Counted from the first letter of the stretch, positions 1,407 through 44,528 are shown. The stretch is DNA of 64,000 nucleotides from an uncultured Gammaproteobacteria bacterium (GCA_964645555.1 CAZYBP010000001.1:759-64758), one strand, 5' to 3'. Notes: generated by a model not told the origin, from the sequence alone. Translations and numbers: made by a program.

Positions 1407-2215
1407 ATTAATCTCCTTTTCAATTTTCGAAGCGGAGTAAGCAACCGGGCTTTTGCTTTTTCCAATCCTTGCATCCTAAGCCATGGGGAAGGAATAAAAC
1501 TTGGGGTTTTTTGATAAAAAACTTCGGGGAATTTGAATCCGTCTTCTATCTTTTTTCCTATTTCATATTTAAATTTCTCATATTTTCTTTTCAAGGAAGA
1601 TCTTTTCAAATGAGTAACATGCAAAAATGGTGCATTAAGGAAAATTATTTTTTCTCTATCCTGCACAAAACGGTTGTCTTGATCCAAAAAACCTTCTTTT
1701 CCATAAGGAAAATCAACATGAAGACCGGGAATATGTTTACTAAAAGCCTTTAAACTAAGATGTCCTGTTTTCCCTAAAATTTTATATCTTCCTGCTTCCT
1801 GTTGCTGTAAATGATAAATATCTCCCACCGGTACAATCATCGGTACGGCAATTCCTTCAGTATTTCCTTGGTGAATTTTTGAAACTACCTTTTTAATTGA
1901 ATCTTTCCACCAAATTTCATCACCATCTAAAATTAAAATCCAATCACAATCAGACTGTTCAAGCAATTTCTGCCGCATTTTAGTAAATTCGTATCTATCA
2001 ACTGCCCCAACTTCCCTAAAATCCACCTTATCTCCGCAAATTTCCTTTATTTCCCTGATTATATCTACTGTTTTATCTGTTGAACCCGTATCCCAAACTA
2101 AAACCTTATCAACAAAATCCATCACACTCATAATGGAAAACCAAATAAAATTTTCTTCATTGTTTACAATGGTATTTGCCCAAATTTTCATTTTCTTAGT
2201 TTCACTAGCAACCAA
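1403..2215 (-). CDS. GT-A-like glycosyltransferase (GT2-related)
   Basis: VWDTGSTDKT plus LDGDE (DxD-like). Sits in a glycan operon. Confidence 0.55.
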   Translation of the reverse strand: MVASETKKMKIWANTIVNNEENFIWFSIMSVMDFVDKVLVWDTGSTDKTVDIIREIKEICGDKVDFREVGAVDRYEFTKMRQKLLEQSDCDWILILDGDEIWWKDSIKKVVSKIHQGNTEGIAVPMIVPVGDIYHLQQQEAGRYKILGKTGHLSLKAFSKHIPGLHVDFPYGKEGFLDQDNRFVQDREKIIFLNAPFLHVTHLKRSSLKRKYEKFKYEIGKKIEDGFKFPEVFYQKTPSFIPSPWLRMQGLEKAKARLLTPLRKLKRRLI

Positions 2216-3447
2216 ATCAAAGGATAGATAAAGTTAAAAGCCGTACCAACTAGCACAGTAACAGATGCACCTATTATGCCGAAATTTGAAATCATGAAGT
2301 ATCCTACTACTCCTATCACCATTAGATGACCTAAAGCTGCCCAAATAAAAACATCGGGCCTGCTAAAATAAAAAATGATGCTGTGATGTACCGGTATAGA
2401 AAAGAGAAAAACCAGGTTTGCCAGGAATAAAAAAATAAAGGGTATGACTGCCTCAGAGTAGGTGGGACCAAAAAGTATTGGAATAAGATAAGTTGAGACA
2501 GGAATAGTGAGAATCCCCAAAAGACAAAGTCCCAGGACTAAAAACTGGAATTTTTTAAAATAAGTCAACATCTGGGAATTGTTTTGGAAGGAGGCAAATT
2601 TAGGTGAGGAAACAAGGCCTAAGGCTGAAACCAACTGAGGCATAATTTGAACCAGCTGGTTAGCAGCCCCATATATTCCAACTTCCCGGCTGGAAAGCAA
2701 AGCAGCATTCAGATAGGTATCCAATCTGGCCGAAAAAGCGGCAATCAGGCTAAATACTGCAACGGGGATATTATATTTAAAAAGTTCTGCTGACAGGGAA
2801 AATTCCTCCTTAACTTGCAATAACTGCCTGCTGGGAAGAAAAAATAATGCTACAAAGAAACCAAAAAAAGGCAGGAGTATAAAAACAAATAAACTGCTTT
2901 CTATATTAAGTAAGCTTGAAATACCAAGTAGCACTATTAAAACAAGTCTTAAGGCATTGGTGAAAATATTTAACAGGCTCCAAAGAAAATATTTCTGGAA
3001 AGCTTGCAAGGCAGATGTAGCAAACGTAAAAAGTAATGCCCCTCCTGCTCCAAATGCTACCAATCTAAGTGGTAAAATTAGCTCTTCTGTATGGAAAACC
3101 TGGATTGCTAAAAAAGGCGTCAGCAAATAAACTGACAAGAATGTCACTATCCAAGCTACCAGCTTAATTTCCAGGCTCAATTTCAAAAATCTATATGCTT
3201 TTTCCCTGTCTTTTGAAATGTGGGAAGATACAAAACGGATCAATCCGGTATTTGTTCCAATGTCTGCCATGTCAGCAATCAGGACTAAGGTAGTTAAAGA
3301 AACAGTCAGGATGCCAAACTCCGCAGGACCCAAAATCCTGGCCAGCAGGATATAAAACAGCGCACCCAAAACCCCGTTTATAATTGTCCCAATAACTGTA
3401 ATCTGGGATTGTTTCCAGGTGGCTGTAGAAAAAATTTCTTTTAACAT
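2188..3447 (-). CDS. Polysaccharide flippase (Wzx/MOP superfamily, Polysacc_synt-like)
   Basis: 419 aa, about 12 predicted hydrophobic helices. N-terminal G..Y..LAR.LGP..FG pattern typical of Wzx-like O-unit flippases. Confidence 0.7.
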   Translation of the reverse strand: MLKEIFSTATWKQSQITVIGTIINGVLGALFYILLARILGPAEFGILTVSLTTLVLIADMADIGTNTGLIRFVSSHISKDREKAYRFLKLSLEIKLVAWIVTFLSVYLLTPFLAIQVFHTEELILPLRLVAFGAGGALLFTFATSALQAFQKYFLWSLLNIFTNALRLVLIVLLGISSLLNIESSLFVFILLPFFGFFVALFFLPSRQLLQVKEEFSLSAELFKYNIPVAVFSLIAAFSARLDTYLNAALLSSREVGIYGAANQLVQIMPQLVSALGLVSSPKFASFQNNSQMLTYFKKFQFLVLGLCLLGILTIPVSTYLIPILFGPTYSEAVIPFIFLFLANLVFLFSIPVHHSIIFYFSRPDVFIWAALGHLMVIGVVGYFMISNFGIIGASVTVLVGTAFNFIYPLIWLLVKLRK

Positions 3448-3457
3448 CGCACAAGTC

Positions 3458-3688
3458 TCATTCAGAGTTTCTAATATACTCCCAAACTGCCTGCAATATC
3501 CCTATTAACCAACCGATGAAGCTGACTCTCATTAGAGGTTCAGCCAAATTACGAAGAGTTAAAACTGTCAAGACAGCTGCCAGAACAAAAAAACCTAAAG
3601 CTACTTTCATAGAGAAACTGGCCTTTTTTTTCAAAGTCCAGATCACAATTATCCATACCGCCAAAATTGCCCAATAGATTATCTCCAT
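3458..3688 (-). CDS. Small hydrophobic membrane protein (2-3 TM), function unknown
   Basis: 76-aa ORF composed almost entirely of hydrophobic helices. Lies immediately downstream of a family-A membrane gene. Could be a GtrA-like small flippase subunit or spurious. Confidence 0.3.
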   Translation of the reverse strand: MEIIYWAILAVWIIVIWTLKKKASFSMKVALGFFVLAAVLTVLTLRNLAEPLMRVSFIGWLIGILQAVWEYIRNSE

Positions 3689-6606
3689 AATAATTTCCTA
3701 ACAATAATATACACTAGTCCTGCCGCTAGTGACAAAAATGAAACTATCTTACCTGCCTCAAGCACACGTTGAGGAGCAAACTCTAACGTCAGATTAAAAT
3801 CTCCACTTCTCTCTACTAACCAGCCGTTAGCATAAGTATTAGCTAAGAAATGTTTATTAATTCTGGTACCGTCATCTAATGTAGCCTCCCAACTACTGTT
3901 GAATAATTCCGAAAGTACTAAGATAAACGGTTTGTCTGCTGCTTTAATTTGTATTGAATATTTTGTTGGATTATGTTTTATATATGTAATTTTAGGAAGA
4001 GGGGAATCCAATAGAGAATTTTGACTGATTAGTATAGGTAGGGGGTCTATCAAGCGGTTAACGGATAGATTTTTCAGAATAATTTCGGTTGGCATTACAG
4101 AATTTGCCCAAAACATTGCATTAGCTCCTTCGGATCTTTGTGCGTTAAATCCGCCTTTGGCAAATATAAATGAGGTGGAGTTTTTTCCTTTAGTCAGAAG
4201 ATTAAAGTTCGGTGCCTGGAGAACAAGATTATTATTTCTTACCATGTCATTACTCTGATTAAAAATGAATGTGAAGTCCGATCCTGAAGAAATTATGTAG
4301 TTAAATTGTATAAAGTACTTCCCATAAGGATCAAAATTATTGATTTCATAAGAAATTTTTTTATCTTGATTTGTAGAAATAATAAGATCCCTGGGAACAG
4401 AAAGCAGATTTTCAGTTACGGGTCTTTCTATGATAATCTTGTGCTGACCTGGGCTGAAATTAAACAACCCGTATGAAATTTTATTGTTTTGTATCTGGCC
4501 CTTTTGTAAAGCAATTTTATCATCAACAATAACTTTAATATTTGCAGCAATAGATGCTTCATTTGCCTCCAGAATAACATTATCCAAAATAAGCTCATAA
4601 TCAGCATCTTTTTCGGCATTAATTTTATATTCCTTTTTGTGCTCAAAAGATGGTATTTCATCAATAAGAGTTTCCTTTTTTTCTTCCTCAGGATACAAAA
4701 TAGTTACAACGCTCATGCTGTCAATTTCTTTCCGGGTATCGGTTGAAAGTAATACATCATAATGTTCATTGCCCCACAAAACATCTGATATTTTAGATTG
4801 AGGAAAAGTAAATATTGGTTTATTTGCTGCATAAACGGTTCTGTCTGCCCAACTGGTATTTTCCCACAGTTTCAATTTTTCAAATTGAGCAACTTTCTTG
4901 AAACTACCCTCTTCTTCTCTTTCTGCAAGAAGCTTTTCTATAACTTGTGGATCCCTCAACCTTCTTTCCCTGATATCAATATCTGAGCGTGTCAATAAAA
5001 ATTTAACATTTAACAGATTTGCAACTTTAGAAAAATCAGGCTCCCTGACAAACAACTTTTCTAATCCCTCAACTACTTGTGAATAATAAGGGATAGTCGT
5101 ATTAAAAGAGATATTAGGAGTTGAAAAGAGTATCTCGGAAGGCTCTATACCCTGGTAGCCTTTTTCCCATTTATAAGTCATTCCCTCATCACCCAAAGGG
5201 AGACTGATAAACCTAAAATTCTTCCCCTGCCTTTGCAACCAAGTATCAGCCTCCTTATAATAAGATGGCACTTTTACCTGAAAGCCTACTTTGTAATTAT
5301 TATTTGGTGGAGTAACACTGGTAAAAACAAGGCCCGAAAAGAAAGGAAAACCTAAGACGGCCAAAACTAAAAGGAAAAAAACAGAGAAAATTATTAAAAC
5401 GGCTTTTTTACTGTATTCTCCTAATTGAGATACGCCTGCAGCAAAAAGAGGTGCAGAAACTAAAGCGGTTATAAAACCAATTTTTTCAAAAGGGTCTCTT
5501 AAAATTTGCAGAACAGATAATCTGGTAAAAAAGTATTGGAAGACTTCACCAAATGGTTGATTACTACCTTTTGCTATATATAACCCAAAGAAAAATATTA
5601 TAGTCAAATAAAGCACAGATAGCTTTGATCTTAATTGGTAAATTACCCATAAAATTGTTCCGGTAAAACCAAATAGGATTAAACCGGGTAAAAAAGTATT
5701 AAATGCAGCCGACCAAGCCGGACCTTCTCCCTGATAAAAACCTCTATGCATAAATCTTAAAATATCGATTAAATTTCCCAGTTTCCGGCTAAGAATATTT
5801 AGAGTGTAAAGATTGCCTTCGGTAGTTATAAAAAGAGACAGTTCCTTGGCTGTATTTTCAGATTGAACAAACTGAAAAGTGGGGATAATCCACCATGCAT
5901 GCACCAGGATAAAAAAGCTTAAGGTTAATAAAATATATTTGATGGCAAAAAAGGTGAATTCCTTTTTTCTAAAGGCTAAAATGAAAAAAAGCCAGGTGAA
6001 AGCAAGTAATAACCACATAAGAAAGTTAAAAACATACGAAGTAAAGGCATAGGAAAAAATGTAGGTCGCAATACCAAAAATAATACCGGCAATAAAACTT
6101 CGTTTTTGTAACCCCCAAATAAAAAGAAAAAGTAAAATCGGTAAAGCTGCCCAAAAAACCATATAATTATATAAAAACCTGTTCCAGACATTCACCATGG
6201 AAAGAGGGTTAAACCAGTAGAATAAAACTGCCAATAAAACATATTTTTGGGCAAGATTGGGAAATAAAAGTTTTGTTAATCCATACATTCCCACCCCGGC
6301 CGAAATAAATAGAAACCAGAAGGTGAAAGCTTGAAGTATATAGCCTGGTATCCCCAACTTTTGAATTTCCGAAAGCAACCACCAGCTTGGAGCTGATGCA
6401 ACTGTCAGACTTTAGGTACTACCTAACTGAAAATCAGTCCAGGCCCAAGCTGTTTTATCCTTATATCTTTCCAGGTTATGAAACGGAATTATCGCTTCCG
6501 CTGTTCCTAATATATTGCCCTCACGGAACCATATTGAAACTAAAATGCCGGCAAGTAACGCAATTAATATAAAAAAACTTCGTTGCCCAGCAATAAATAA
6601 TTTCAT
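3679..6606 (-). pseudogene. Family-A large polytopic membrane protein (GT-C-like candidate, YfhO/AftD-like architecture) interrupted by one in-frame TAA
   Basis: ORF 6412..6606 (N-terminus ILVSIWFREGNILGTAEAIIPFHNLERY...) and ORF 3679..6378 are in the same frame, separated only by TAA at 6412-6414. The joined product aligns without gaps to the intact paralog 22488..25316 from its N-terminus onward. The ATG at 6604-6606 overlaps the TGA stop of the upstream gene (ATGA). Confidence 0.55.
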
Positions 6607-9272
6607 AGTTTTGTCTTTAATATTACCATCAAAATCCCTATGCTTAAAACCGTCAGCCCCGTTACCAATAAACCTTCCGAAACAAATTTTTGAGCTTTAA
6701 ATTCCAGAATATATTCCCCATTTTTTTCAACCGGGAAAACATTTAGCAAACTATAGCCGGGAAGCGAAGATTTATCATCCAGTTGCCATAAAGGATCATA
6801 GCTTTCAGAAAAAACCAAAAAGCCTGTTCCTTTAAAATCCCTAATCAACACTTTATATTTAGTAGAATTTATTTTCTGATATTCAACTTTCACTGCAGAA
6901 TCGTCAATGGCATTGCTAAATTTTCCAATACTTTGCTGATAAATTAAGGCTTTGTTTTGATAATCAGACCAATCCTCAGGATGCACAAAAATGAGTGCAT
7001 TTATGATATTTATATCCCCGGATGAGGAAACTGTAATTGGAGAATCAGAACTTATTTTTCCTACTTCAAACCATCTGACGTTAGTATCTTTGTCAATTTT
7101 CGTTGAAATTTCCCCGACTAACTGTTCGTCCTGGTAAAAGCTTACTTTCCCGCTTCTTGAGCTCTCCATAACTCTTGCAAGCAATATTTGTCCATTTTTC
7201 AATTTTTCACTCTCAATTTTCAATTTTCTCTCTCCTTCCCCTACTGCCCAGCCCCCTCCGTAATCAAAATCTGTATTGTCTATACCGTATTTTGTCTTAA
7301 GAAAGTACCGAAACCGGATTAAATCCTTTGTCTGTCTTTTCCACCAACCTGATTCATCAGGATCTAATTTCAGTTTCGATGAAGGAAAAATAAACTTAGA
7401 GGCAGGAATAAAAGAAGCAGCCAAATCCAGATTTGTTTTATTATTTAAGATAATTTTTGCATCACTTATTCCTTCCATCCTCTCTGATAACCCCGGGTAT
7501 TCTTCGGCAAAGACTAAAGCATTATTAGATAAACTCAACTTGCTGCTGGTTGTTGCTTCAGCGTAAATACTGTCTGACCCGACTACCCACCAAAAGTTTG
7601 AAGTTACAAAAAATTTATTCTGATGCTTAGTTGTCTTCCAAAGGGGGATGGGGGAATCAGCAATTCTTGATAGCCAGGGAAGTTTATTCAGTTGATCTGA
7701 AAAGGTATCGTAATATTTAACGTTATCCGGATGCAGATCGTCACGCCTTGGATCAAACGCCGGATAGGCAATATACCCTATACCTGCTACATTAAATAAT
7801 TCACCCATAAAGGATGCTTCTCTTAAAAAATTAAATATTTCATAAGTGCCTTTCGTACCTATAGCAAAAGGTCTTTTCTGGACAAACCTGGCTGCCTCGG
7901 CAGAAGGATGATTATCGTCAATCAAACCTAAGGGCGGGATAGCAGGAATCCAAAATATTCGGGAAAATTCCAGGTCATCTCCAACAATATTATTTAATTT
8001 AGAATATTCCTGCTGGTAAATGGGTAAATAAAACGTACCGGTCATTTGCCCCAACCATACAGGTCTAATCAGGAATAAAAGATAGATTATAACTGCGATA
8101 GGAAATAATATCTTAGCTTTCGTACTCTTTAATTTGTTTATAATTTCATCTACCGAAATAGACAGCAGGATCGTAAAGGATAAAGCAACAAGAAAGAAAA
8201 ATTTTGTTGAATCCCGAAATAGGGAAAAACCGGGTATATTATGGAATAAAAAGGGATAAACTTGACTAAGCGGTTCGGATGCTCCTTTTGCTAAAAAGAC
8301 TGACAGTAAAACAACTATCAGCCAAAAACCCACTGTTTTGTCTTTAGGCCGGAATACCGGTGCCAAAAATACAAAAATCGGGATAAGAATAAATTCAAAA
8401 TTCAAAGGACTAATTTTTCCAAAGATATTTTTAAACCAATGAGGAACAATTAAAAACATTGAATGACCTATTGTTGTAAAACTTTCAAAGTTTGTTTGTG
8501 TCAACATTAAATAGGTAGAGTCAGATAACGGTTTTTTAATTATCGGTACAAGCCAATAAGCATTCATCCCCCCGACTATTAAAAGAGAGACAAAAGCCAT
8601 CTGAAATGAATTTTTGATCCAACTTCCCCATTCCTTCCTATTTAAAAATAAGAATTCATAAATGAAACGCAAAAAAGATAGAATTATCAATATATAGACA
8701 AACCTAAAATCTAAAAAACCTAAAACCCAAACGGAATAAGCTGCAATTATCTTATTTATCCATCCTTTTTTGATTGCTGTTTCTATCGCCAAAAAGCTGA
8801 TTGGAAAAAATGCATATGCCATACCAACCACCATCTGTCCCCCGTCAATGACTGAAAGAATATATGTATTAGTTAAATAAAAAATAATCGCTATAGTTTT
8901 TGCCGGCACAGATAATTTAATATTTTGACCGGTTTTCCATATCCCCCAACTACCGAAAGCAAGGATAAAACCGGTTAAAAGAATCCTTTCCAAAAAGGCA
9001 AAAGTAAAACCAAGATGTATCAGTACTGCAGAAATAAACATCATCGGCCAGGACCAAATAGTATAAACTGAATATTCACCCAAACCCTCCGCTCCGAAGT
9101 CAAGCCAAACCCGGGGAATATCAAAAAAGGATTTAAGGGCAGTCTCGGAAACCAGCGGATAGTCAACAGCCACTCTTGGACCGGGTAAAAACCATGTCCA
9201 AAAGATAAATGAAAAAACACAAGTTAAAAGTAATATTGCCGCCTTTTTACTCATGTATTTTTTATCTCCCAT
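6603..9272 (-). CDS. Family-A large polytopic membrane protein (GT-C-like candidate), 889 aa
   Basis: N-terminal multi-TM domain of roughly 12 helices, a large beta-rich C-terminal ectodomain and a final TM anchor (LLVTGLTVLSIGILMVIL). Paralogous to 10964..14386, 22488..25316 and 3679..6606. Confidence 0.7.
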   Translation of the reverse strand: MGDKKYMSKKAAILLLTCVFSFIFWTWFLPGPRVAVDYPLVSETALKSFFDIPRVWLDFGAEGLGEYSVYTIWSWPMMFISAVLIHLGFTFAFLERILLTGFILAFGSWGIWKTGQNIKLSVPAKTIAIIFYLTNTYILSVIDGGQMVVGMAYAFFPISFLAIETAIKKGWINKIIAAYSVWVLGFLDFRFVYILIILSFLRFIYEFLFLNRKEWGSWIKNSFQMAFVSLLIVGGMNAYWLVPIIKKPLSDSTYLMLTQTNFESFTTIGHSMFLIVPHWFKNIFGKISPLNFEFILIPIFVFLAPVFRPKDKTVGFWLIVVLLSVFLAKGASEPLSQVYPFLFHNIPGFSLFRDSTKFFFLVALSFTILLSISVDEIINKLKSTKAKILFPIAVIIYLLFLIRPVWLGQMTGTFYLPIYQQEYSKLNNIVGDDLEFSRIFWIPAIPPLGLIDDNHPSAEAARFVQKRPFAIGTKGTYEIFNFLREASFMGELFNVAGIGYIAYPAFDPRRDDLHPDNVKYYDTFSDQLNKLPWLSRIADSPIPLWKTTKHQNKFFVTSNFWWVVGSDSIYAEATTSSKLSLSNNALVFAEEYPGLSERMEGISDAKIILNNKTNLDLAASFIPASKFIFPSSKLKLDPDESGWWKRQTKDLIRFRYFLKTKYGIDNTDFDYGGGWAVGEGERKLKIESEKLKNGQILLARVMESSRSGKVSFYQDEQLVGEISTKIDKDTNVRWFEVGKISSDSPITVSSSGDINIINALIFVHPEDWSDYQNKALIYQQSIGKFSNAIDDSAVKVEYQKINSTKYKVLIRDFKGTGFLVFSESYDPLWQLDDKSSLPGYSLLNVFPVEKNGEYILEFKAQKFVSEGLLVTGLTVLSIGILMVILKTKL

Positions 9273-9439
9273 AAATATTTAACTGTCCCTACAAAAAAAA
9301 TAAAAAGGGGTAAAATTAAAAGCCGCCCGGCAAACCCTTGATGATTTGAGGCAATTGCTAAAGCTGCCAAAAAAAGAAACACTAACCCAAAAAGAAAGAA
9401 AGACTTAGCAGATAAGCTCATCTTTAAATTATATCCCAA
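9251..9439 (-). CDS. Possible small membrane protein (62 aa)
   Basis: Hydrophobic two-helix ORF in the 196-nt divergent spacer. May simply be promoter-region noise. Confidence 0.2.
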   Translation of the reverse strand: MGYNLKMSLSAKSFFLFGLVFLFLAALAIASNHQGFAGRLLILPLFIFFVGTVKYLWEIKNT

Positions 9440-9467
9440 AACTTTTGATTTAGTATATTATATAAAC

Positions 9468-10967
9468 ATGAAGAAGTTATTCCCCCTGATTATAATATTT
9501 GTAGTTGTTTTCCTCTTATATTATCAGACTCTTTTTGTTTATTTTTCTCAGGATGATTTCTTTATGTTTAAAATCAGTCAAACTGACAATACATTAGGGG
9601 GATTTTTAAACCTGTTTGCCATACATTCTTTTCCGGAAAGAGGCATTGCGTTTTACAGACCCATCTTCAGAGAAGCCTTGCATAATATCTATTTTTCTGC
9701 CTTTGATTTAAACCATCTCCCTTTTAGGATACTAATGCTGATTGTTCATTTTATTAACATATCTTTGGTCTATTTTTTGGTAAATATTATCTTTGGAAAC
9801 AAAATTCTTGCTACCTTGGCAGCTTTTTTCTTCGGCATTACCGCTGCCAATGTTGCTCTTTTATATTATTTGGCCGGGGGAATAGAGACGGGCGGCGCAA
9901 CAATGTTTGCTCTGTTGACATTGATTTTATATAGAAAATATTTAGTAAATAATAATCCGGCGCTGTATCTGGCAACATTTGTTACCTTTTTAATGGCTAT
10001 TTTTTCTCATGAAATAGTGGGAATGACTGCCGGAGTTATGCTTATAATGCTTATTACATCCAACGTTAAAAAAATCTCAAGCAAAGCAATTGCTCTTTTA
10101 CCATTTCTACTTGCTACGGTTTTTCTTTTTTACATAGATTTAGTCAAGATCGGTCTTTCTTCCGGAGAAAAACAATATCAATTTATTTTCAATATCTCTT
10201 CTGTATTAAATTCCATAGTTTGGTATTCTGTTTGGGCTTTTGGCATCCCTGAAATGCTCATTGATTTTATAGGACCGGGGATAAAACTTAATCCGGTACT
10301 CATGCGCTACTGGGGAAATTATTATACGGTTATCTTTATTGCTTTCGGTATTGCTCTTTCCATCTTCCTTTTCATGTTTTTGTATTTAATACTTAAAAAA
10401 AAGTTTGTGTTTTTTGACCGGCGGTTTTGTTTTTTTCTGCTCTGGCTTATGGTGGGGCTGCTGCCGATAATATTTTTACCAAACCATAAATCCACCCACT
10501 ATTTAGTCTTTGTCCTGCCAGCTTTCTGGACTGTTGTGACTTTCATAGTCTTAAATTTTTACACTAACATGTCAAAATATGCTAAATTTACCGCTAGCAT
10601 ACTGACTGCCCTGGTAATTTTTTCCCTTTTAACCCTATCTGCAGTGTCTATAAAACTAGAAGACACTACATATTGGGCAGCAAGCAGAGGAAGACTGGCA
10701 GAAAGATTAATAAATCAAATCAAAACAACTTATCCTAACTTACCCAAAGAAGCTATTATCTACTTCGAAAATGATCCAAATTATCCCCACCTCACTGCAG
10801 AATGGGGTTCCAGTTCCAAACAGGTAGCTGTTATATTAAACAATCAGGACGCTTTAAGACTTATCTATAATGATTCCAACCTGAGAGTATATTATGAGGA
10901 TCTTGACAAACCAGCGGAAAAGCTTCAAGAGACAAATGTCTATCGAATAAAAGCAAAAATATATTAA
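9468..10967 (+). CDS. Family-B polytopic membrane protein (GT-C-fold, GT39/ArnT-like candidate), 499 aa
   Basis: At least 10 TM helices. Acidic FSQDDFFMF motif in the first extracytoplasmic loop, as in the Dx(D/E) loop-1 motif of GT-C enzymes. Stop overlaps the stop of the convergent gene. Confidence 0.6.
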   Translation: MKKLFPLIIIFVVVFLLYYQTLFVYFSQDDFFMFKISQTDNTLGGFLNLFAIHSFPERGIAFYRPIFREALHNIYFSAFDLNHLPFRILMLIVHFINISLVYFLVNIIFGNKILATLAAFFFGITAANVALLYYLAGGIETGGATMFALLTLILYRKYLVNNNPALYLATFVTFLMAIFSHEIVGMTAGVMLIMLITSNVKKISSKAIALLPFLLATVFLFYIDLVKIGLSSGEKQYQFIFNISSVLNSIVWYSVWAFGIPEMLIDFIGPGIKLNPVLMRYWGNYYTVIFIAFGIALSIFLFMFLYLILKKKFVFFDRRFCFFLLWLMVGLLPIIFLPNHKSTHYLVFVLPAFWTVVTFIVLNFYTNMSKYAKFTASILTALVIFSLLTLSAVSIKLEDTTYWAASRGRLAERLINQIKTTYPNLPKEAIIYFENDPNYPHLTAEWGSSSKQVAVILNNQDALRLIYNDSNLRVYYEDLDKPAEKLQETNVYRIKAKIY

Positions 10968-13900: not shown

Positions 13901-14386
13901 ATAAGGCAACGATGCCGAGAGGATAAAATTGGCATAAATAAATCTATGCCAAACAATCATCATAAAAGGATTGAATATATAAAATAACCCAGCCAAAAGC
14001 TGCAATCTACCACCATAAGGAATAATTTGCTTACAAAGCAGGCTTACCCCCAAGCCTTGTAAGTAAATTATGATAAAAAATATGACCTTTTGGATCCCGA
14101 TTGCACCAAAACCTAAACGTTCTAAAATACTCATAAAGTAGTAGAAAGGTATTGATGCGGCAACTGTGGGAATTGAAGTACCGGGGCCTAATGCTTCCCA
14201 CCACAACCATCTAATCTGTTCCAATATTTTTCCCGGGGCGTAAGTCGGAATACCTACCTCAGTTCCTCCAAACAATATATTCTTAGTAAACCAAAGTTGC
14301 ACTAATAAAAAAGCAATCAATAAGAAAAAAACTCTTGGATCCAGTAAAATATCTTTTACTTTTTCCAGAGTTTTCATTTTTTCCAT
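10964..14386 (-). CDS. Family-A large polytopic membrane protein (GT-C-like candidate), 1140 aa, with central coiled-coil insert
   Basis: Carries RNPFEKTG, and the C-terminal YANGWLINRTGE motif followed by a TM anchor. Roughly 100 aa of charged helical sequence (EADRLRQAKKEQEF...) sits between the TM domain and the beta-rich ectodomain. Confidence 0.7.
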   Translation of the reverse strand: MEKMKTLEKVKDILLDPRVFFLLIAFLLVQLWFTKNILFGGTEVGIPTYAPGKILEQIRWLWWEALGPGTSIPTVAASIPFYYFMSILERLGFGAIGIQKVIFFIIIYLQGLGVSLLCKQIIPYGGRLQLLAGLFYIFNPFMMIVWHRFIYANFILSASLPYFVFFYIKLLEKGRMIFIFLFLVISFLASYMFSSVAPVIAIWLAVAVIFIFSVFENRRQVKKITRNIFLTVTLFVLWILTNFWWLYPLFSTTNLVSAFSNKGNVDTLLTLSSQSTINYVIRGINPFIMFFEKDWGEVYLSPYFQLLSWTSVLFILLSFIKREGKVWYMITLFLFGVFMAKGAAEPFGKITAWIYANIYLLGAIRNPFEKTGLLVFLPASILITLGVRNLWIFKIKLNVPFKALIPKIITVILVMGMIVYVWPMFGDRLFGSDKYPPFFTVPADYKEVSAFLSKELTINPGKILILPISEGDAATYNWTYTYNGVELASHLFPGASISRQLYIPFVDRLIEEIARTFHKENYIAQKAILKNLGIKYIVLNKDLDYSQRRIDNPKKIEHFLNTSSDLSIVKETGHLKVYKFLDETKSAVNIAGGISLVSGSGLPRDISQTDYIMGNVINTNNIFLQEFSTQHIDESILYKEILYPQRVIPLESFSTPPDIIIPRPFIKYLPDSIFYPAVILKEKIEFYFTPFYEKSMKMLVLTQKRIIEADRLRQAKKEQEFNRSIAQYSAYLDETTGMLKKLSEEDLDTQTKSIIKVVLDEEKKKLTSFIDAAGNNEINLKIKEDIEKISAFLKDIGLEVYYTFVDTEVENSSKINVYQFFIRNHTRMEFILTSVDSKHFGLEDGKTIKVYLDGTAKYMVLKQEDSKNWFSLGEIELTPGVHEIGLSIQNNLNVLHKVDSNKEGITEYTISDYNPDKTYILSFNYKVLQGPPPQIQFWQDSDKLTGVKVPKLRKEISDNAHDFNWKYLTLSISTNNTASVRLDRSTDKPTIKIFTDNQSKVEIRDLSIAESFNGSVVLSSSVGNTFSPVTAEFKKISPVEYQVQVNNPNQDMFIVLNESFHNGWKVIMDSPKMGEVAEKDHYLTNGYANGWLINRTGELSFRIKFTPQDNLYTGLKISLTVFFLLSLLLLGKQFRRKQLN

Positions 14387-20786: not shown

Positions 20787-22541
20787 ATGTCCAAAGGTTT
20801 GATTCAAAGTTTACTTCTTTGCTCCATTATAATAGTTATCAGTCTCTTTACACTTTATCCTTCCTTTAAACTTGCTTTGTTTGGAGACGATTGGCAGCAA
20901 ATCTTTCATTATTTTCTTTATCTTGGGCCAAAGAGCAGCGTTTTCGATCATTTAACTTATTTTGTAGGGGGCTATGGGGCTTTTGGAGTTATTACAGGAA
21001 TATCTTACCTGGCTTTTGGCCATGATTATAAAATGTATTATATATTTTCATATATATATAAGTTACTTTCTGCCTTTGCAATTTTTCCCCTTGCTTTTTA
21101 CTTAACCCGTTCAAAACTTGCAGCCTTTTATGCTTCACTATTTTTATCTGTCACCATCATCGGGCTTGAGAGTACTAATTGGGTAGTCAATTCCCCCGCT
21201 TACCTGGCTGTTGCCAACCTATCGTTATTTCTGTATTTTTTTCTAAAGTCCAGGGAAAATTTAAAACCACTCTATTTTATTGGGGCGGCAATATTTTTTT
21301 ACCTTGCCCATATTTTTGCCCCCGTCAGAATGACCGGTCTGCTGCCGTTTACAATAATTTTGGAGATATTTCTATACATTAAATCTCTCAATATTAAATT
21401 ATCGTTTATACGCTTGGTCATTCTATTTGTTGTATTTGCAATCATTACTGTTACGGGAGCATCTGCAGGCAGAACTGATACATTAGCCGGACAAGCATCA
21501 AAAACACTATTTTCCGGGTTTAGCCAAATTGCTGCTGCATTAGACAAAGGCCGCACAGACTTTTTATTTTATCCGGTCATGACTGTTGGCCGTATTGTTG
21601 TACCGGATACCACAGCTATTAAAATATTTCCCATGCTGATTTATCTGATTGTATTTATGGCAGTTTTTTATGCAAATGCCAACAAAAGTAAAAAAGTAAT
21701 TGCCGGTATAGCAGTGGGGATAGCCGTTTGGTCACTAATCAGTATGCTGATTTATGAATCCAATAAACTCACGTTATCAGCCCGCGATGCTTTATCCCTG
21801 GCTATTGGAGGATATTTTTTAACAACTGCCATTATATTATTGTTTTTTTTAAAAAAGCATTTGCTTTTTTACTCTGTATTTATAGCCAGCTTTTGGTCCG
21901 TATTTTCATTTATATTCCCTTGGATTAGAGCACCGGAGACGCTGAACCCGACTGAACATAGATACTTAGTTGCTTCATCGGTTGGTGTTGCAATTTTCTT
22001 TGCCAGTATTATCGGGCTGGGTAAGCAGTTAAAAAACCGTGTTTATCTTTTTTTGGTAGTAATACCGTTTTTATTAATAAATATTTTGGCCACCCGGAGT
22101 TTTCTTACCGACGCTGTCCAAAATAGCCATGGCAGTGAGGCAATAAATAAAATTTGGCCGCAATTTCCCCGTATTGCTGAAATTGGTAAAACGGAAAAAC
22201 CATTAATGTTCTTCTTCACCTCTTCTCCTGAAAAAGAAAAATTAAAACATCATTCTCTGACATTCGGTTTTCCTTTCAGAATGGCCTTTATCTATAATAT
22301 CGACAATTACTGGAAAATGCCTATTGCTACCAACAGCTGGGAAGATATCGTCTCGGCAGTTTCGGACGGACAATCTTTATTTATGAACAATTTCCCCAAA
22401 GATCCTATCCCTGTTGAAAATATTTATGCATTCTACCTTACTTCTGATAACAATTTATTAAATATAACAGAAGCGACAAGAGAAAAATTAAAGGATTTTC
22501 TTAAACAAAACCCAGAGAGTAATAATCAGACCGGAAATTAG
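20787..22541 (+). CDS. Family-B polytopic membrane protein (GT-C-fold candidate)
   Basis: LFGDDWQQIFHYFLYLGP motif, many TM helices. 3' end overlaps the convergent family-A gene by 54 nt. Confidence 0.6.
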   Translation: MSKGLIQSLLLCSIIIVISLFTLYPSFKLALFGDDWQQIFHYFLYLGPKSSVFDHLTYFVGGYGAFGVITGISYLAFGHDYKMYYIFSYIYKLLSAFAIFPLAFYLTRSKLAAFYASLFLSVTIIGLESTNWVVNSPAYLAVANLSLFLYFFLKSRENLKPLYFIGAAIFFYLAHIFAPVRMTGLLPFTIILEIFLYIKSLNIKLSFIRLVILFVVFAIITVTGASAGRTDTLAGQASKTLFSGFSQIAAALDKGRTDFLFYPVMTVGRIVVPDTTAIKIFPMLIYLIVFMAVFYANANKSKKVIAGIAVGIAVWSLISMLIYESNKLTLSARDALSLAIGGYFLTTAIILLFFLKKHLLFYSVFIASFWSVFSFIFPWIRAPETLNPTEHRYLVASSVGVAIFFASIIGLGKQLKNRVYLFLVVIPFLLINILATRSFLTDAVQNSHGSEAINKIWPQFPRIAEIGKTEKPLMFFFTSSPEKEKLKHHSLTFGFPFRMAFIYNIDNYWKMPIATNSWEDIVSAVSDGQSLFMNNFPKDPIPVENIYAFYLTSDNNLLNITEATREKLKDFLKQNPESNNQTGN

Positions 22542-25316
22542 TGCAAATTGCGATATTAAACTATCTTTGTCTAAATCATTTTGCAGACTATATTCCAAAT
22601 TCAAGTCAAAATCTCCTAGTCTGTCGATTAACCAACCGTTAGCAAAAGAGTTGGTCAGGAAATGTTTCTCAACTTTAGTCCCGTCCGGATAACTCAATTG
22701 CCAGCCACTGTTAAAAATAGAGGAGAAAACAACCACAAACGGATTTAAGGAATTTTCAATACGGATGTTGTATCTTGACGGGCTGATTTTGTCATAAGAA
22801 AGATTAGGTGTTTTATTAATTCTATCTTCTAATTTATTGATTAAAACTAAATCCGGTAGCATTAGTTCTCTTACGTTCATATTTTTAACCTTTAAGTTGT
22901 CTAAGTCAGGCCAAAAGTATATATTTAGCGCACTGGCTGTTGAGCGTGCTTCAAACAAATCATTAAACGACTCAAAACGATCTAAAGTGGTAGTTGTTAA
23001 ATCTTTCATATGATACGGACGAATCTTACCTTTTTCTTTTTGATCATTATCAAAAGAAATAACTAACTTTTTTTCTTGTAGTGTCGAATAATCAAAGGAA
23101 ACCAAATATTTTGAGAAAGGATTGATATTTAAGACAGTAAAACTGTTTTTATCATCAGATAAGGTTGTAAGATTACCTGAATACGAAATATTTATTATTA
23201 CTGTGTGTAATCCTTCTGTTAAGTTGAGTTCGCCATAAGACCACCTGCCGTCTTCTCTTAAAACCGGATTTCCTTGTAGCCTGACACCATCAACTAAAAT
23301 ATCTCCAGGTTCCGATAACTTATCCGAAATTAACTCATATTTGCCGCTATTTTTAATATCAAATTTGTAGTAACCGGGTTTGCGCTCCGGATTTTTCAAA
23401 TCATCAGGATGGATAACCCTTAAGTTAACCAGGTCGTCAAGATAGGATATATTTGAAATAGCAGTTCCGGCTGAAGAAGCCTCAGAAAAAGTAAAGTCTT
23501 TTAATTGAACCGTTGGCGATACATCCATTAAATTACCTGTTACATACAGGCTCTTGTCGGTCCAAAATGGGTTTTCCCAAAATTCAAGTTTGCCGAAAGA
23601 TAAGGTTTTTACCAATTCTCCTTTCTTACTTTTGTCCATGGCGATTTTTTGTATTGTTTGAGGATCCCTCATTTTTCTCTCGTAAATATCTACATCGGAT
23701 CTGATTAGTAGATATTTAGCGTTTAAAACATTCATAACCTCATAAAATTTGGGCTTACTGACAAATAACTCTTCCAGTTGATCAGCAACTTTGTCAAAAT
23801 ATAAAATAGTGGTAGAAGACATAATATGCGGAGTATCGAATAGCCACATTGATGTTTCTATTCCTTGGTAGCCTTTTTCCCAATTATAGGTTACCCCTTG
23901 TCCGCTGAAAGGAAAACCGATAAATCTAAAATTATTACCCTGGAACTTGAGCCAATTGTTGGCCTGCTCATAATACTGCGGCACTTTTACCTTATACCCT
24001 ACCGAATAATTGTCTGTCGGCGGGAAAAAACCGGTAAAAACAAGGCCTGACCAAAAGGGATAGCCGTATAAAGCAACTATAATGAATAAAGTGGCTGTAT
24101 AAACTGCTAAATGTAGCTTCTTTTGAAATTTTGACAATAAACCTTCAAGCCCCGCAGCCAATAAGGGTACTGCAGCAAGTAAGGTTATAAAACCAAATTT
24201 TTCAAATGGATTTCTAAAAAATTGCAGAGGAGAAATATTAATAAATAAAAATTGAAATAATTCTCCAAAGGGGGGATTATTTCCTTTGGCAAAGTATAGG
24301 CTTAGAAAAAACAATACGGCCAAAGCTAAAACATTAATATTTTTTCGGGCTTGAAATATAAAAATCAAGATAACTGCGGAAACTAAAAATTCTATTACTA
24401 CCGCTGCCGGCATGGAAAATAACTTCGGCCATTCAATTTGCGGAGTGGTGAAGAATGGCCCATGAAATAATCTAAAAAGGTATGTTAAATCCCCTAATGT
24501 TTTACTTGAGGCGGTCAGCGTCGATAGGCTTACATCGAATTGGAAAAAGGAAGATAATTCTTCAGAATATTTACCTATAAAAAGACTCCTTACAACCTGA
24601 CCAATCCACCATAAATTGACTAAAGAAAAATAAATTAAATTTATAGCAATAAAGCTTAGAGAAAATATTCTTTCCTTGGTTGTCTTAACTGTGATAAATT
24701 TAAATAAGGTAAAGTAAGTAAAAATAAACCATAAAATTATATTAAAGACAGGGTTTGATAATCCTAAAGAAAAAACAGCACAAGTTATCCCCACTACGGA
24801 AACATAATAAAAATTCTGTTTCTGTAAACCTTTGATATAAAAAGCGGAAACCAGAGGCAGAAGTGCCCAAAAAGCTATGTAATTATATAGAAATCGATTC
24901 CAAATATTAACTAAAGAGATAGAATTAAACCAATAAAATATAACTGCTACTACCAAATACTTCCTGCCAATGTGGGGAAAAAATTCCCGGGTAAATAAAG
25001 TAATTCCAACTCCGGATACTACAAGAAAAAACCAAAAAAGTCCGGCTTCAATTATATAATTGGCTACGCCAATTTTCTCAAGTAAAGAAAGCGCAAAAAA
25101 AGTAGGGGAGTATGCAGTCACAATACCGTTGGCAAATCCCAATCCGGAATTTGTGTCGGACCAGGCGCCCTTAACCTGACTATGAAATCTGGATAAATTA
25201 TAAAAGCTAATCTGGCTTTCGGCAGTACCTAATAATAAACCATCTTTAAACCAAGTAAATACCAAAATTGAACTGGCAATGGCTAAAACAGCTAAAAGTA
25301 GAAGGATGCTCCGCAT
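22488..25316 (-). CDS. Family-A large polytopic membrane protein (GT-C-like candidate), 942 aa
   Basis: Carries RNPFEKFGF, and the C-terminal FANGWLIDRLGDF motif with a TM anchor. Serves as the intact reference paralog. Confidence 0.7.
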   Translation of the reverse strand: MRSILLLLAVLAIASSILVFTWFKDGLLLGTAESQISFYNLSRFHSQVKGAWSDTNSGLGFANGIVTAYSPTFFALSLLEKIGVANYIIEAGLFWFFLVVSGVGITLFTREFFPHIGRKYLVVAVIFYWFNSISLVNIWNRFLYNYIAFWALLPLVSAFYIKGLQKQNFYYVSVVGITCAVFSLGLSNPVFNIILWFIFTYFTLFKFITVKTTKERIFSLSFIAINLIYFSLVNLWWIGQVVRSLFIGKYSEELSSFFQFDVSLSTLTASSKTLGDLTYLFRLFHGPFFTTPQIEWPKLFSMPAAVVIEFLVSAVILIFIFQARKNINVLALAVLFFLSLYFAKGNNPPFGELFQFLFINISPLQFFRNPFEKFGFITLLAAVPLLAAGLEGLLSKFQKKLHLAVYTATLFIIVALYGYPFWSGLVFTGFFPPTDNYSVGYKVKVPQYYEQANNWLKFQGNNFRFIGFPFSGQGVTYNWEKGYQGIETSMWLFDTPHIMSSTTILYFDKVADQLEELFVSKPKFYEVMNVLNAKYLLIRSDVDIYERKMRDPQTIQKIAMDKSKKGELVKTLSFGKLEFWENPFWTDKSLYVTGNLMDVSPTVQLKDFTFSEASSAGTAISNISYLDDLVNLRVIHPDDLKNPERKPGYYKFDIKNSGKYELISDKLSEPGDILVDGVRLQGNPVLREDGRWSYGELNLTEGLHTVIINISYSGNLTTLSDDKNSFTVLNINPFSKYLVSFDYSTLQEKKLVISFDNDQKEKGKIRPYHMKDLTTTTLDRFESFNDLFEARSTASALNIYFWPDLDNLKVKNMNVRELMLPDLVLINKLEDRINKTPNLSYDKISPSRYNIRIENSLNPFVVVFSSIFNSGWQLSYPDGTKVEKHFLTNSFANGWLIDRLGDFDLNLEYSLQNDLDKDSLISQFALISGLIITLWVLFKKIL

Positions 25317-27827: not shown

Positions 27828-29930
27828 CTATTCCCATGGCCAAATTTTAAATAATATATCAATTGTATAATCTCCCTTATTGTCTATCAACCAACCATTG
27901 GCAAACCCATTAACTAAAAAATGTTTGTCTACTACCTGGTTATCGATCCGTGCTTGCCAAAAACCATTGTATGTATCATTTAAAACTAATACAAAAGGTG
28001 TCCTTGCCCCTACTTGGACCTTGAAACGGGTGGGAGATTTCTTTTCAAACACCAAATCAACTGAAGAATCTGAATTTTGGCTAAGCTCGCCTGAAGAGCC
28101 GATAGACTGGTAATTTTCTGTATCGACAAAAGCAGCCTCAGTTGTATCAAACCCGCCGCTGCTTATACTATTTAATGCCTGATCAATGGAATCAAATTCT
28201 GCCAAAGATGTCACTGCGAAGATTTCCGGCTTAACAATGCTTTTTTCTAAAGTGTAAACAGTTAAAGGCCCGAACTCTGCATCCTTAGTAATTTCCCGCC
28301 ACTGGTCTATTTTGACTGTATTTAAATCCAACTGAGGATAAATCATATCACGGTGCAAAATAATATGATCAACTCCCAAAAGTCCTAATGTCCTTGGTAA
28401 GAAATTCTGGGAGAGGTATTTGGGGATTAATATATAGTAGTTGTTAAAAGTAGGTACTGTTGAGCGGGAGACGTTTTGTGAGTCAAACAGATTTTCAGCA
28501 GGGTCCTGTCCAATATAACCCCATGAATATTTTAATAATTCTGCCTGTACTGAAACAGGCAGATGAAAAATTCTTTGGCTTGAATTTGAGTTCAAATAAT
28601 CATTAGCCTGGGTATAATACGGAGGAATTGTCAGCCTGTCTTTAGAAGGGAATATTCTACCATTCCACATCGGATAAACTAAAATGCCATATAATAAGAC
28701 TATCAAAAAAACTCTTAATACCCGGCCGCTTTTTCCGGTAAATTTCTTAAAAATGTAATTCAAACCAAGTGCAAAAAAGACTGAGTAAGGCAAAAGGAAA
28801 ACTAATCAAAATTTCTCATAGGGGTTTCTCAAAGCTGCGCTGAATGGGAATGTTGAAAAGATCACAGAAAAAAATTGGTATCCCAAAGGAAAGTTTGAAC
28901 CCTTACTGACAAACCAGCCAATCAGTAATAAACTAATTAAATATTTAAAATTTTTTTGGGTCTTTTCCTTTACAATACCCAGTATAACAATAGCCAAAAC
29001 AACTAAACTTATTAAGTAACTAAAGAAATTATTATAGAACTCAAACCATCCGGTACTTAAAGAGCTTCCCTTTTCAAAAAAAGCTTTCTGGCGCAGCATT
29101 AAAATATCGGTAGTTCCAAAGTATTTACTTACACCTATTAGTGACTCACGGTGTATTCTCCATTCCTCTGAAAACTTAGCTAAGGTAGCTCCCTGTGCAG
29201 TTGACTTGTGAATTAAAGGATAAATCCACCAGGTGTTGACTAAAACTGTCACAATAACCGTGAATATACACTTTAATAAAAGTTTTAATAAATAAGTTTT
29301 ATTTTTTCTATTTTGAATAAATTTAATAAGGGCATAAATACCTGCCACTGTTAGGTAAACAAACAAATATGCAGGATGGGAAAAAGCATGCGAGAATACT
29401 GTCATGCTTGCAGCAATAAAAATTAGCCAATAAATTTTACCCTCGTCCAACCATTTTATCCAAAGAAAGATAAACAGTGGCAGGTAAGCCCAGGGAAACA
29501 TGCCTTGATAAATGTTCCTTTTCCAAACCTGGGTCATGGAGTATAGATTAAGTAAGTAAAAAAAACTTCCTAGTATAGATATTAGCTTACTTTGTCCAAA
29601 ACCTTTGTAAAGCAAAAGGTACATAAAGACTACACCTGAAAACATGATTATCCAATATGAAAGTGCCTGAATCAAAAAGGGCGCAAATCCGGCCTTTTGA
29701 AACAAGCTCAAAAATGTCAGATAGGGAAATCTTACAAATTCAAAAATATTTACGCTACCTGTACCAGAAGGATACCAACTGCTAGAAAAATATTTTGCAG
29801 TTCTTTCAAAGTTAACAAAAGATAAATTCTCCTCACTATTGTTTGAAACAAAAGTTTTTGTCGAGAACCAGGAAAATATGATTATGAAAGTCACAAAAAA
29901 TGCAAGCAGTAAGAATGATCTGGTCTTCAT
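27828..29930 (-). pseudogene. Family-A membrane protein paralog (shortened) interrupted by in-frame TGA at a conserved Gly codon
   Basis: ORFs 28806..29930 and 27828..28793 are in the same frame. Sequence reads ...RNPYEKF-TGA-LVFLLPYS..., where intact paralogs have RNPFEK(F/I/T)-G-(F/L).... The C-terminal part keeps the FANGWLIDNKGDY motif but lacks the final TM anchor. Confidence 0.55.
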
Positions 29931-34344: not shown

Positions 34345-34379
34345 AAATGGTATTATACATTAACAATAGAGGATATAAT

Positions 34380-36716: not shown

Positions 36717-36732
36717 TGATAGTATATATAAA

Positions 36733-38151: not shown

Positions 38152-38174
38152 GTAATGTTCGCTATACTCAAATT

Positions 38175-41014: not shown

Positions 41015-41075
41015 ATTAATGAATCTCCCCTAACTTATGTCATGGTATCTTCTTGATTCTTGCCTCCGGCAGAAA

Positions 41076-41933: not shown

Positions 41934-41950
41934 AATTGATAATTGTGTGA

Positions 41951-42730: not shown

Positions 42731-42734
42731 GTGT

Positions 42735-43703: not shown

Positions 43704-43727
43704 AAAAATTCAAGGTCCTTCTTCTAC
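43688..43727 (-). promoter_or_regulatory. Single copy of the same start-region cassette upstream of the GDP-fucose-synthase-like gene
   Basis: 43691-43727 (tatattttttcataaaaattcaaggtccttcttctac) is identical to 33199-33235 over about 27 nt (ctctatattttttcataaaaattcaag) plus the ttcttcta tail. Both genes therefore begin MKKYR after the same 5' context. Confidence 0.4.
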
Positions 43728-43761
43728 CCCATTATGCACTTAATTTTACTACAAAATATTT

Positions 43762-43790
43762 TTGATACAAGTGAAGATTTTAAATTAATA
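43762..43790 (+). promoter_or_regulatory. Candidate sigma70-type promoter for the GT2 operon starting at 43821
   Basis: TTGATA at 43762-43767, a 17-nt spacer, then TTAATA at 43785-43790, about 30 nt upstream of the ATG. Only a sequence-pattern match. Confidence 0.3.
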
Positions 43791-43820
43791 TATGTTAGAA
43801 TTAATCTTTAACAAAAGCCT

Positions 43821-44525: not shown

Positions 44526-44528
44526 ACT

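What the first reader, a model, noticed from the sequence alone, without database searches (positions are those of the whole stretch)
6376..6417. Second family-A paralog also carries a single in-frame stop (TAA) near its N-terminus, with operon-style ATGA coupling upstream
ORF 6412..6606 (MKLFIAGQRSFFILIALLAGILVSIWFREGNILGTAEAIIPFHNLERY...) is clearly the true N-terminus of the 899-aa ORF 3679..6378. It aligns residue for residue with the N-terminus of 22488..25316. The two pieces are in the same frame, separated only by TAA at 6412-6414, where the paralog has Asn in ...LGFANGIV.... The ATG at 6604-6606 overlaps the TGA of the upstream gene (ATGA), supporting the extended start. Two of five paralogs are thus interrupted by one stop each while otherwise intact. 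That is unlikely for random decay and is reminiscent of stop-codon-based on/off variation of surface-glycan genes.
Basis: seen in the sequence. Interest (0 to 1): 0.65.

Follow-up and report, generated by a model that had tools for sequence, protein, structure and literature searches.

The report
Private nonsense SNP in glycosyltransferase gene
A single base change (TCA to TAA) found only in this assembly cuts off the first 64 residues of an otherwise intact cell-surface sugar-transferase gene of a groundwater Daviesbacteria genome; it is an ordinary null allele or a consensus error, not a programmed switch.

Summary
On the minus strand, ATG 6606-6604 opens 64 codons. TAA lies at 6414-6412, and the same frame runs on for 910 codons to 3679. 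The ATG overlaps the TGA of the upstream gene.

The 64 codons are the true N-terminus of an AftD-like GT-C glycosyltransferase. They are as conserved as the rest of the protein in 24 homologs, and all 24 have a sense codon at the stop position.

A sister MAG settles the origin. It is Candidatus Daviesbacteria GCA_016187055.1, about 99.9% identical over about 58 kb. It encodes the intact 975-aa protein, identical except Ser65 (TCA), so the stop is one G:C>T:A substitution at 6413.

The second interrupted paralog is the same case (GGA>TGA at 28808). It is intact in the sister MAG and in an independent contig that otherwise matches the window exactly.

No repeat tract or invertible element lies nearby, and the stop codon is not conserved. 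TAA is the commonest genuine stop in the window.

Best reading: a very recent, assembly-private null allele, or a consensus error. Reads are needed to tell these apart. Two nonsense changes among 19 isolated SNPs, both in this family, hint weakly at tolerated or selected loss. Interest is low.

The parts
6604..6606 (-). True start codon ATG of the GT-C gene. It overlaps the upstream gene's TGA (6603-6605) as ATGA.
   Evidence: The same 4-nt overlap is present in ortholog loci L001/L002 and in the sister contig L008 (genes 7335-10004 and 10001-12928).
6415..6606 (-). N-terminal 64 codons: TM1 (about residues 10-26), then the first extracytoplasmic loop with the conserved motif W26 F27 ... A36 E37 ... 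F42 Y43 L45 ... W56 ... L61 G62.
   Evidence: Alignments A1 and A3. Identity to orthologs is 37-63% here against 35-70% for the rest of the protein. The AlphaFold model of ortholog P0002 has helix 2-18 followed by the loop.
6412..6414 (-). In-frame TAA at codon 65. The sister MAG has TCA (Ser). The single difference is at 6413 (+ strand: G in the sister, T in the window).
   Evidence: Homologs carry S/T/A/N (one paralog Ile) at this column.
3679..6411 (-). Remaining 910 codons plus the terminal TAA of the same gene: the rest of the GT-C membrane domain, the periplasmic beta-rich domains and a C-terminal TM helix. It is identical in protein sequence to sister protein MBI2600216.1.
6603..9272 (-). 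Upstream, translationally coupled gene. It is a distant fifth AftD-like GT-C paralog (889 aa).
   Evidence: hhalign probability 99.3%, E 3.9e-20 against family profile A3. It has no Pfam hit of its own.
3458..3688 (-). Downstream 76-aa gene whose start overlaps the end of the GT-C gene by 10 nt. A Wzx-like flippase gene (2188-3447) follows. Polar effects of the stop on these genes are possible (inference).
28806..28808 (-). Second private nonsense codon: TGA at codon 375 of paralog 27828-29930. The sister MAG and Logan contig L023 have GGA (Gly).

Best explanation
The TAA at 6414-6412 comes from one recent G:C>T:A substitution (TCA Ser65 to TAA) carried by the genome or population variant that this assembly captured. 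The affected gene is otherwise intact and under purifying selection. It encodes an AftD-like GT-C membrane glycosyltransferase and lies in a large surface-glycan gene island of a Candidatus Daviesbacteria (CPR/Patescibacteria) bacterium.

Translation from the ATGA-coupled ATG stops after 64 residues. That fragment holds TM1 and the first part of external loop 1, including the near-invariant Glu37.

Any re-initiated product (TTG 6378 or later ATGs) would lack TM1 and that loop. The allele is therefore most likely null, and it may also lower expression of the coupled downstream genes.

Shown: a single-base difference from an intact allele, conservation of the N-terminus, and membership of the fold family.

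Inferred: loss of function, polarity, and that the base is a true variant rather than an error.
For: Sister MAG: GCA_016187055.1 contig JACPKN010000087.1 matches window 3259-16606 with only 3 mismatches. One of them is 6413, where the sister has TCA. Its protein MBI2600216.1 (975 aa) equals the window read-through except Ser65.

Homologs: all 24 aligned homologs are full length, have a conserved N-terminus and carry a sense codon at the stop column. The 70% ortholog has the same synteny and the same ATGA start.

Genetic code: the standard code applies. TAA ends 25 of 50 large ORFs.

Family and fold: Pfam PF11847 hits the paralogs. The AlphaFold model of the ortholog (pLDDT 91) has mycobacterial AftD 6W98 as its best PDB match (E 1.3e-18), followed by STT3 and AftA. 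In AftD, K39 and D41 just after TM1 are essential (bioRxiv 10.1101/2019.12.22.885152).

Population diversity: real strain diversity exists at this locus in several runs of the same series, so a true private variant is plausible.
Against: No reads were available, so the base call at 6413 is unverified.

Both nonsense changes are private to this one assembly. They are the only G:C>T:A differences among the 19 isolated SNPs, and G:C>T:A is also a known oxidative-damage error class.

At the second site, an independent contig (L023) that is otherwise identical to the window carries the sense codon. That fits a minority variant or an error as well as a real fixed mutation.
Confidence: 0.58

Rival explanations
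1. Consensus, assembly or sequencing error. The organism has TCA at codon 65 and GGA at codon 375 of the other paralog, and the stops exist only in this deposited contig.
For: Both stops are private to this assembly. The sister MAG has sense codons at both sites. Logan contig L023 is identical to the window over 3,483 bp, including the window-type SNP at 26783, but has the sense codon at 28808. Both changes are G:C>T:A, which is the 8-oxoG artefact class, and no other isolated SNP is of that class. MAGs of this project can have low coverage: the sister's name ends in _37_8, which by my reading of the naming convention suggests about 8x.
Against: Substitution errors rarely reach the consensus in Illumina assemblies. 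G:C>T:A paths make up 7 of the 23 single-step routes to a stop codon (my own count from the standard genetic code table, not a tool result), so two out of two is not remarkable. Real SNP-level strain heterogeneity is evident at this locus.
Confidence: 0.32
2. Selected on/off variation. Loss-of-function alleles of individual GT-C paralogs are favoured or tolerated in the population, for example to alter surface glycans under phage or host pressure. This would make the two stops non-random, though not mechanistically programmed.
For: Over about 58 kb compared with the sister MAG there are 19 isolated SNPs: 11 synonymous, 6 missense and 2 nonsense. Given 11 synonymous changes, neutrality predicts 27-38 missense and 1.4-2.7 nonsense. 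Missense changes are therefore purged, while nonsense changes appear at about the neutral rate. Both fall in the AftD-like family, which is only about 21% of the nonsense target. Intact and null alleles coexist in samples of the same run series.
Against: The numbers are tiny and the test was made after the fact. Both stops are seen in only one assembly. There is no recurrence at other sites or in other strains. The pattern is equally explained by transient deleterious variants or by errors.
Confidence: 0.12
3. Programmed phase variation, stop-codon readthrough or recoding, or a functional split protein made of the 64-aa peptide plus a re-initiated C-terminal piece.
For: The frame is maintained across the stop. 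A small hairpin (6398-6380, minus strand) lies 13 nt downstream of the TAA. This genome shows little dependence on SD sequences, so downstream re-initiation cannot be excluded.
Against: There is no simple-sequence repeat, homopolymer or invertible repeat near the site. The stop is absent from every relative, including a 99.9%-identical genome. TAA is the main genuine terminator here. The hairpin lies in the conserved coding sequence ASAPSWW and is also present in the intact allele. A split would sever TM1 and the loop carrying Glu37 from the rest of the active site.
Confidence: 0.03
4. 6378 (TTG) or a later ATG is the genuine start, and the 64-aa ORF is a chance upstream ORF.
For: One gene caller started the gene even later, at Met149 (P0001, 827 aa).
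Against: The 64 residues align with the N-termini of all full-length homologs at 37-63% identity, with near-invariant positions. The sister allele is one continuous 975-aa ORF.
Confidence: 0.01

Closest known systems
Mycobacterial arabinofuranosyltransferase AftD (GT-C fold; Pfam PF11847 GT-C_AftD / DUF3367; PDB 6W98)
   Same: Both have an N-terminal multi-helix GT-C membrane domain followed by large beta-rich periplasmic (carbohydrate-binding-like) domains. AftD is the best structural match in the PDB. Pfam PF11847 hits the paralogs and orthologs. A conserved acidic residue follows shortly after TM1, as with the essential K39/D41 of AftD.
   Different: Sequence identity is only about 11%, and the profile found no PDB match by sequence. 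The protein is shorter (975 aa; the matched 6W98 chain is 1,312 residues). It ends in a single C-terminal TM helix rather than AftD's ACP-binding four-helix bundle. The host is a CPR bacterium with no arabinogalactan (general knowledge), so donor and acceptor are unknown. This gene's own Pfam score (19.8 bits) is below the 26-bit cut-off.
Strain-specific nonsense (null) alleles in surface-polysaccharide loci such as O-antigen, capsule or LPS genes of cultivated bacteria (general knowledge)
   Same: A single point nonsense mutation in a glycosyltransferase inside a glycan gene cluster, with intact alleles in close relatives.
   Different: Here it is known only from one metagenome assembly. There is no phenotype and no read-level confirmation.
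Contingency loci and phase-variable glycosyltransferases (slipped-strand repeats, as in Neisseria, Haemophilus and Campylobacter; general knowledge)
   Same: The gene class is the same, and an on state and an off state both exist in one population.
   Different: There is no repeat tract or invertible element. A base substitution is not readily reversible.

Membership tests
AftD-like GT-C glycosyltransferase (PF11847 / DUF3367) | Pfam PF11847 match at or above the gathering score | tested here: inconclusive
   This gene scores 19.8 bits against a cut-off of 26, even when the intact sister protein P0121 is used. Paralogs score 37, 52 and 72 bits. Orthologs P0003-P0008 carry precomputed PF11847. 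Membership therefore rests on transitivity: 36% identity to paralog 22488-25316.
AftD-like GT-C glycosyltransferase (PF11847 / DUF3367) | GT-C fold, with AftD as the nearest solved structure | tested here: met
   The AlphaFold model of the 70% ortholog P0002 has pLDDT 91.1 and pTM 0.90. Foldseek against the PDB gives 6W98 AftD at E 1.3e-18, then STT3 subunits, AftA and EmbA/B.
AftD-like GT-C glycosyltransferase (PF11847 / DUF3367) | Conserved acidic residue in external loop 1 just after TM1 (AftD D41) | tested here: inconclusive
   Glu37 (window numbering; E29 in P0002) is conserved at 90% or more in 26- and 54-sequence alignments. It lies about 10 residues after TM1. Its residue-level equivalence to AftD D41 was not established by superposition.
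AftD-like GT-C glycosyltransferase (PF11847 / DUF3367) | C-terminal four-helix bundle that binds acyl carrier protein (mycobacterial AftD proper) | tested here: not met
   The model shows only one C-terminal helix, 938-971. This is an AftD-like enzyme, not an AftD orthologue.
AftD-like GT-C glycosyltransferase (PF11847 / DUF3367) | Arabinofuranosyl transfer from a decaprenyl-phosphate donor | not testable with these tools
   Needs biochemistry.
Phase-variable (contingency) gene | Simple-sequence repeat or homopolymer tract, or an invertible segment, at the switch site | tested here: not met
   There is no tandem repeat within 3000-10000 near 6413. Window 6000-7000 holds only short, chance-level direct and inverted repeats. 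The lesion is a base substitution.
Programmed readthrough, recoding or alternative genetic code | The stop codon is conserved at the site in relatives, or the codon is not used as a terminator in the genome | tested here: not met
   All 24 homologs and the 99.9%-identical sister have sense codons. TAA terminates 25 of 50 ORFs of 200 aa or more.
Decaying (old) pseudogene | Several disabling lesions and relaxed constraint | tested here: not met
   There is one lesion only. The protein is otherwise 100% identical to the intact sister allele, and the N-terminal piece is as conserved as the rest.

The most novel reading that the evidence does not exclude
Null alleles of individual AftD-like GT-C paralogs are recurrently selected in this Daviesbacteria population. 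That would amount to mutation-driven on/off diversification of the cell-surface glycan of an episymbiotic CPR bacterium, for example to escape phages or to change host attachment. The two private stops would be its footprint.
Probability: 0.12. Interest if true: 0.45.

Novelty: already known. Interest (0 to 1): 0.17.

Why it matters
For annotation, 3679-6606 should be treated as one gene, either a pseudogene or null allele of a 975-aa GT-C glycosyltransferase or an intact gene if the base is an error. It should not be annotated as a 64-aa ORF plus an N-terminally truncated enzyme.

Biologically it matters only a little. If the stop is real, one of five GT-C paralogs in a 64-kb surface-glycan island is switched off in this strain. 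That could change the surface glycan of an ultra-small symbiotic bacterium. The coincidence of two such stops in one family is a small lead for population-genomic tests of selection on glycan genes in CPR bacteria.

Tried and rejected
1. Alternative genetic code: rejected, because all three stop codons are in regular use.

2. The TGA in the other paralog sits at a conserved Gly, so code 25 (UGA=Gly) was considered. Rejected: it is a single site, TGA ends 17 ORFs, and the sister has GGA.

3. Scans of genome contigs and metagenome contigs for same-species alleles returned only relatives at 39-46% identity.

4. The window's own contig is not in the gene-position index.

5. Search for Logan contigs spanning 6413: the eight contigs retrieved through the neighbouring 76-aa gene reach only window position 6014. 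The site could therefore be checked in just one other assembly.

6. PDB sequence search with the family profile found nothing, even at E<=10. Fold search was used instead.

7. Phase-variation features were looked for and none were found.

8. SD-based assessment of re-initiation at TTG 6378 is uninformative, because this genome shows almost no SD motifs.

9. A literature search for DUF3367 returned one unrelated paper.

Full report
**1. Observation**

On the minus strand an ATG at 6606-6604 opens a frame that runs for 64 codons. It meets TAA at 6414-6412 and continues in the same frame for 910 more codons to the TAA at 3681-3679. The ORF listing reports the two pieces as 6412..6606 (64 aa) and 3679..6378 (899 aa from a TTG).

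The ATG overlaps the TGA (6605-6603) of the upstream 889-aa ORF as ATGA.

The window is 35% G+C and uses all three stop codons as terminators: 25 TAA, 17 TGA and 8 TAG among ORFs of at least 200 aa. The standard bacterial code therefore applies. The stop is in the public record, because the exact 64-aa product is indexed from an 85,981-bp NCBI contig.

**2. What the gene is**

The gene family:
- tblastn with the read-through protein finds three further paralogs in the window. They are 22488-25316 (36% identity, intact), 10964-14386 (27%, intact) and 27828-29930 (25%, interrupted by TGA at 28808-28806).
- A profile comparison adds the upstream gene 6603-9272 as a distant fifth member, at hhalign probability 99.3%.
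- The large ORFs 53137-55452 and 34347-36716 are unrelated.

Family assignment:
- The paralogs hit Pfam PF11847 (GT-C_AftD, formerly DUF3367) above threshold.
- The gene in question scores 19.8 bits against a 26-bit cut-off.
- An AlphaFold model of the 70%-identical ortholog P0002 is confident (pLDDT 91.1, pTM 0.90).
- Its best PDB matches are mycobacterial AftD (6W98, E 1.3e-18), followed by STT3, AftA and EmbA/B. This is the GT-C fold.
- Unlike AftD, the protein ends in a single TM helix rather than an ACP-binding four-helix bundle.

Neighbourhood: the surrounding genes are GT2 and GT4 transferases, methyltransferases, a carbamoyltransferase, sugar-nucleotide enzymes and a Wzx-like flippase. 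The whole window is therefore a surface-glycan island.

**3. The 64 codons are the genuine N-terminus**

- A database search returned full-length homologs of about 970 aa at 42-70% identity.
- In a 26-sequence alignment the first 64 residues align throughout. Near-invariant positions are W26, F27, A36, E37, F42, Y43, L45, W56, L61 and G62.
- Identity to the orthologs is as high in residues 1-64 (37-63%) as in the rest of the protein (35-70%).
- The stop column holds S, T, A or N in the orthologs, and Ile in one distant paralog.
- The closest ortholog comes from Logan contigs of SRR22216451 and SRR22216446. It shows the same gene order, the same ATGA overlap with the upstream gene and AGT (Ser) at the site.
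- In the model, residues 2-18 form TM1 (window numbering about 10-26). The loop carrying the conserved Glu follows, and the stop falls just before the next helix of external loop 1.
- In AftD, K39 and D41 directly after TM1 are essential (bioRxiv 10.1101/2019.12.22.885152). That Glu37 is their equivalent is an inference. I did not obtain a residue-level superposition.

**4. The decisive comparison**

An exact-sequence look-up showed that the window's products cluster with proteins of a second NCBI assembly, Candidatus Daviesbacteria bacterium GCA_016187055.1 (locus tags HYW43_).

- Its protein MBI2600216.1 (P0121) is 975 aa and identical to the window read-through except Ser at position 65.
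- MBI2600302.1 (P0127, 700 aa) is the intact form of the second interrupted paralog, with Gly375.

At the DNA level, sister contigs cover 57,965 bases of the window.

- Window 3259-16606 differs at only three positions. One of them is 6413, where the sister has TCA and the window TAA.
- At 28808 the sister has GGA and the window TGA.
- Both changes are G:C>T:A transversions. Both are derived in the window, because every homolog has a sense codon.

Supplementary Table 18 of He et al. 2021 (PMC7906910) lists the sister MAG under BioProject PRJNA640378. It is the bin Genasci_Feb2018_S35_SO-1_Daviesbacteria_37_8, from an agricultural groundwater site at Modesto, California, on a 0.1-um filter.

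**5. Other assemblies of the same population**

Logan contigs from runs SRR12113383, -384, -385, -420, -424, -430 and -431 carry the same species at 99.6-100% identity.

None of those I could retrieve spans 6413. The longest reaches window position 6014.

One contig, L023 from SRR12113431, spans 28808. It is identical to the window over 3,483 bp, including the window-type base at SNP 26783. At 28808, however, it has the sense codon. The second stop is thus private to the window assembly even on a window-like background. By analogy the same is likely for 6413, but this is not shown.

Contig L013 mixes window-like and sister-like SNPs. Contigs L015-L021 carry additional SNPs. Real strain heterogeneity and mosaicism therefore exist at these loci.

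**6. Is two stops in one family more than chance?**

Three dense divergent tracts and a run of N were excluded. That leaves 19 isolated SNPs between the window and the sister: 11 synonymous, 6 missense and 2 nonsense.

Counting mutational opportunities in the window's genes gives the neutral expectation. For 11 synonymous changes it predicts 27-38 missense and 1.4-2.7 nonsense, for transition/transversion weights of 1-4.

Missense changes are thus about five-fold depleted. Nonsense changes are not depleted, and both lie in the AftD-like family, which is about 21% of the nonsense target.

This is suggestive of tolerated or favoured loss, or of errors. It rests on two events and was examined after the fact.

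**7. Mechanisms considered**

- Phase variation: nothing supports a programmed switch. There is no simple-sequence or tandem repeat and no invertible segment near the site.
- The hairpin: the only hairpin (6398-6380) lies in the conserved coding sequence ASAPSWW and is also present in the intact allele.
- Readthrough or recoding: unsupported, because the stop is absent from all relatives and TAA is the main terminator.
- Re-initiation: start sites in this genome mostly lack SD motifs and often have a TATAAT-like box a few bases upstream. Re-initiation downstream of the stop therefore cannot be judged from sequence. Any such product would lack TM1 and the conserved loop, so I infer loss of function.
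- Polarity: the downstream 76-aa gene overlaps the end of this gene and is followed by the flippase gene. Polarity on these genes is possible (inference).

**8. Verdict**

The feature is an ordinary single-base nonsense change private to one metagenome assembly, in an otherwise intact and conserved AftD-like GT-C glycosyltransferase gene.

My estimates are about 0.58 that it is a true recent null allele and about 0.32 that it is a consensus error. Within the true-allele reading, I put about 0.12 on the null alleles being favoured by selection. The remainder of about 0.04 covers a programmed mechanism or the rejected downstream start. Read mapping would settle it. Novelty is nil for the mechanism, and interest is low.

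Noticed in passing
window 28806-28808 (gene 27828-29930, minus strand): A second private nonsense codon: TGA where the sister MAG and Logan contig L023 have GGA, the Gly of the conserved motif RNP[FY]EKFG. L023 is otherwise identical to the window over 3,483 bp.
   Followed up: yes
window 21388-21434 and 22316-22352 (gene 20787-22541); window 62496-62734 (gene 62414-63583): Dense clusters of SNPs, with small indels in the last tract, against the otherwise 99.9%-identical sister MAG. They look like recombination or strain-mosaic tracts. Gene 20787-22541 has no Pfam hit.
   Followed up: partly
window about 60283-60333 (gene 59700-60470, NTP_transferase): The window has 51 extra in-frame bases (17 codons, EVKEAILKNHLTGDEGK) relative to the sister contig. 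The sister also has a run of N at the start of this gene.
   Followed up: partly
window 6603-9272: This 889-aa protein has no Pfam hit but is a distant AftD-like GT-C paralog (hhalign 99.3%). It is translationally coupled (ATGA) to the interrupted gene, giving a tandem pair of GT-C enzymes.
   Followed up: yes
upstream of many starts, e.g. 25316, 25363, 34344, 58284, 62414: Most genes lack a Shine-Dalgarno motif. Several have a TATAAT-like box 5-12 nt upstream of the ATG, which suggests very short leaders or leaderless mRNAs.
   Followed up: no
L013 (SRR12113424_33524) against window 35549-46889: This contig carries window-type bases at 38714, 41349 and 41352 but sister-type bases at 43180 and 45034. 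That is either a recombinant haplotype or a consensus chimera of co-existing strains.
   Followed up: partly
window 1-64000: The whole window is one surface-glycan biosynthesis island. It holds five GT-C paralogs, many GT2 and GT4 transferases, methyltransferases, a carbamoyltransferase, sugar-nucleotide epimerases and dehydratases, a Wzx-like flippase and an asparagine-synthase-like enzyme.
   Followed up: partly
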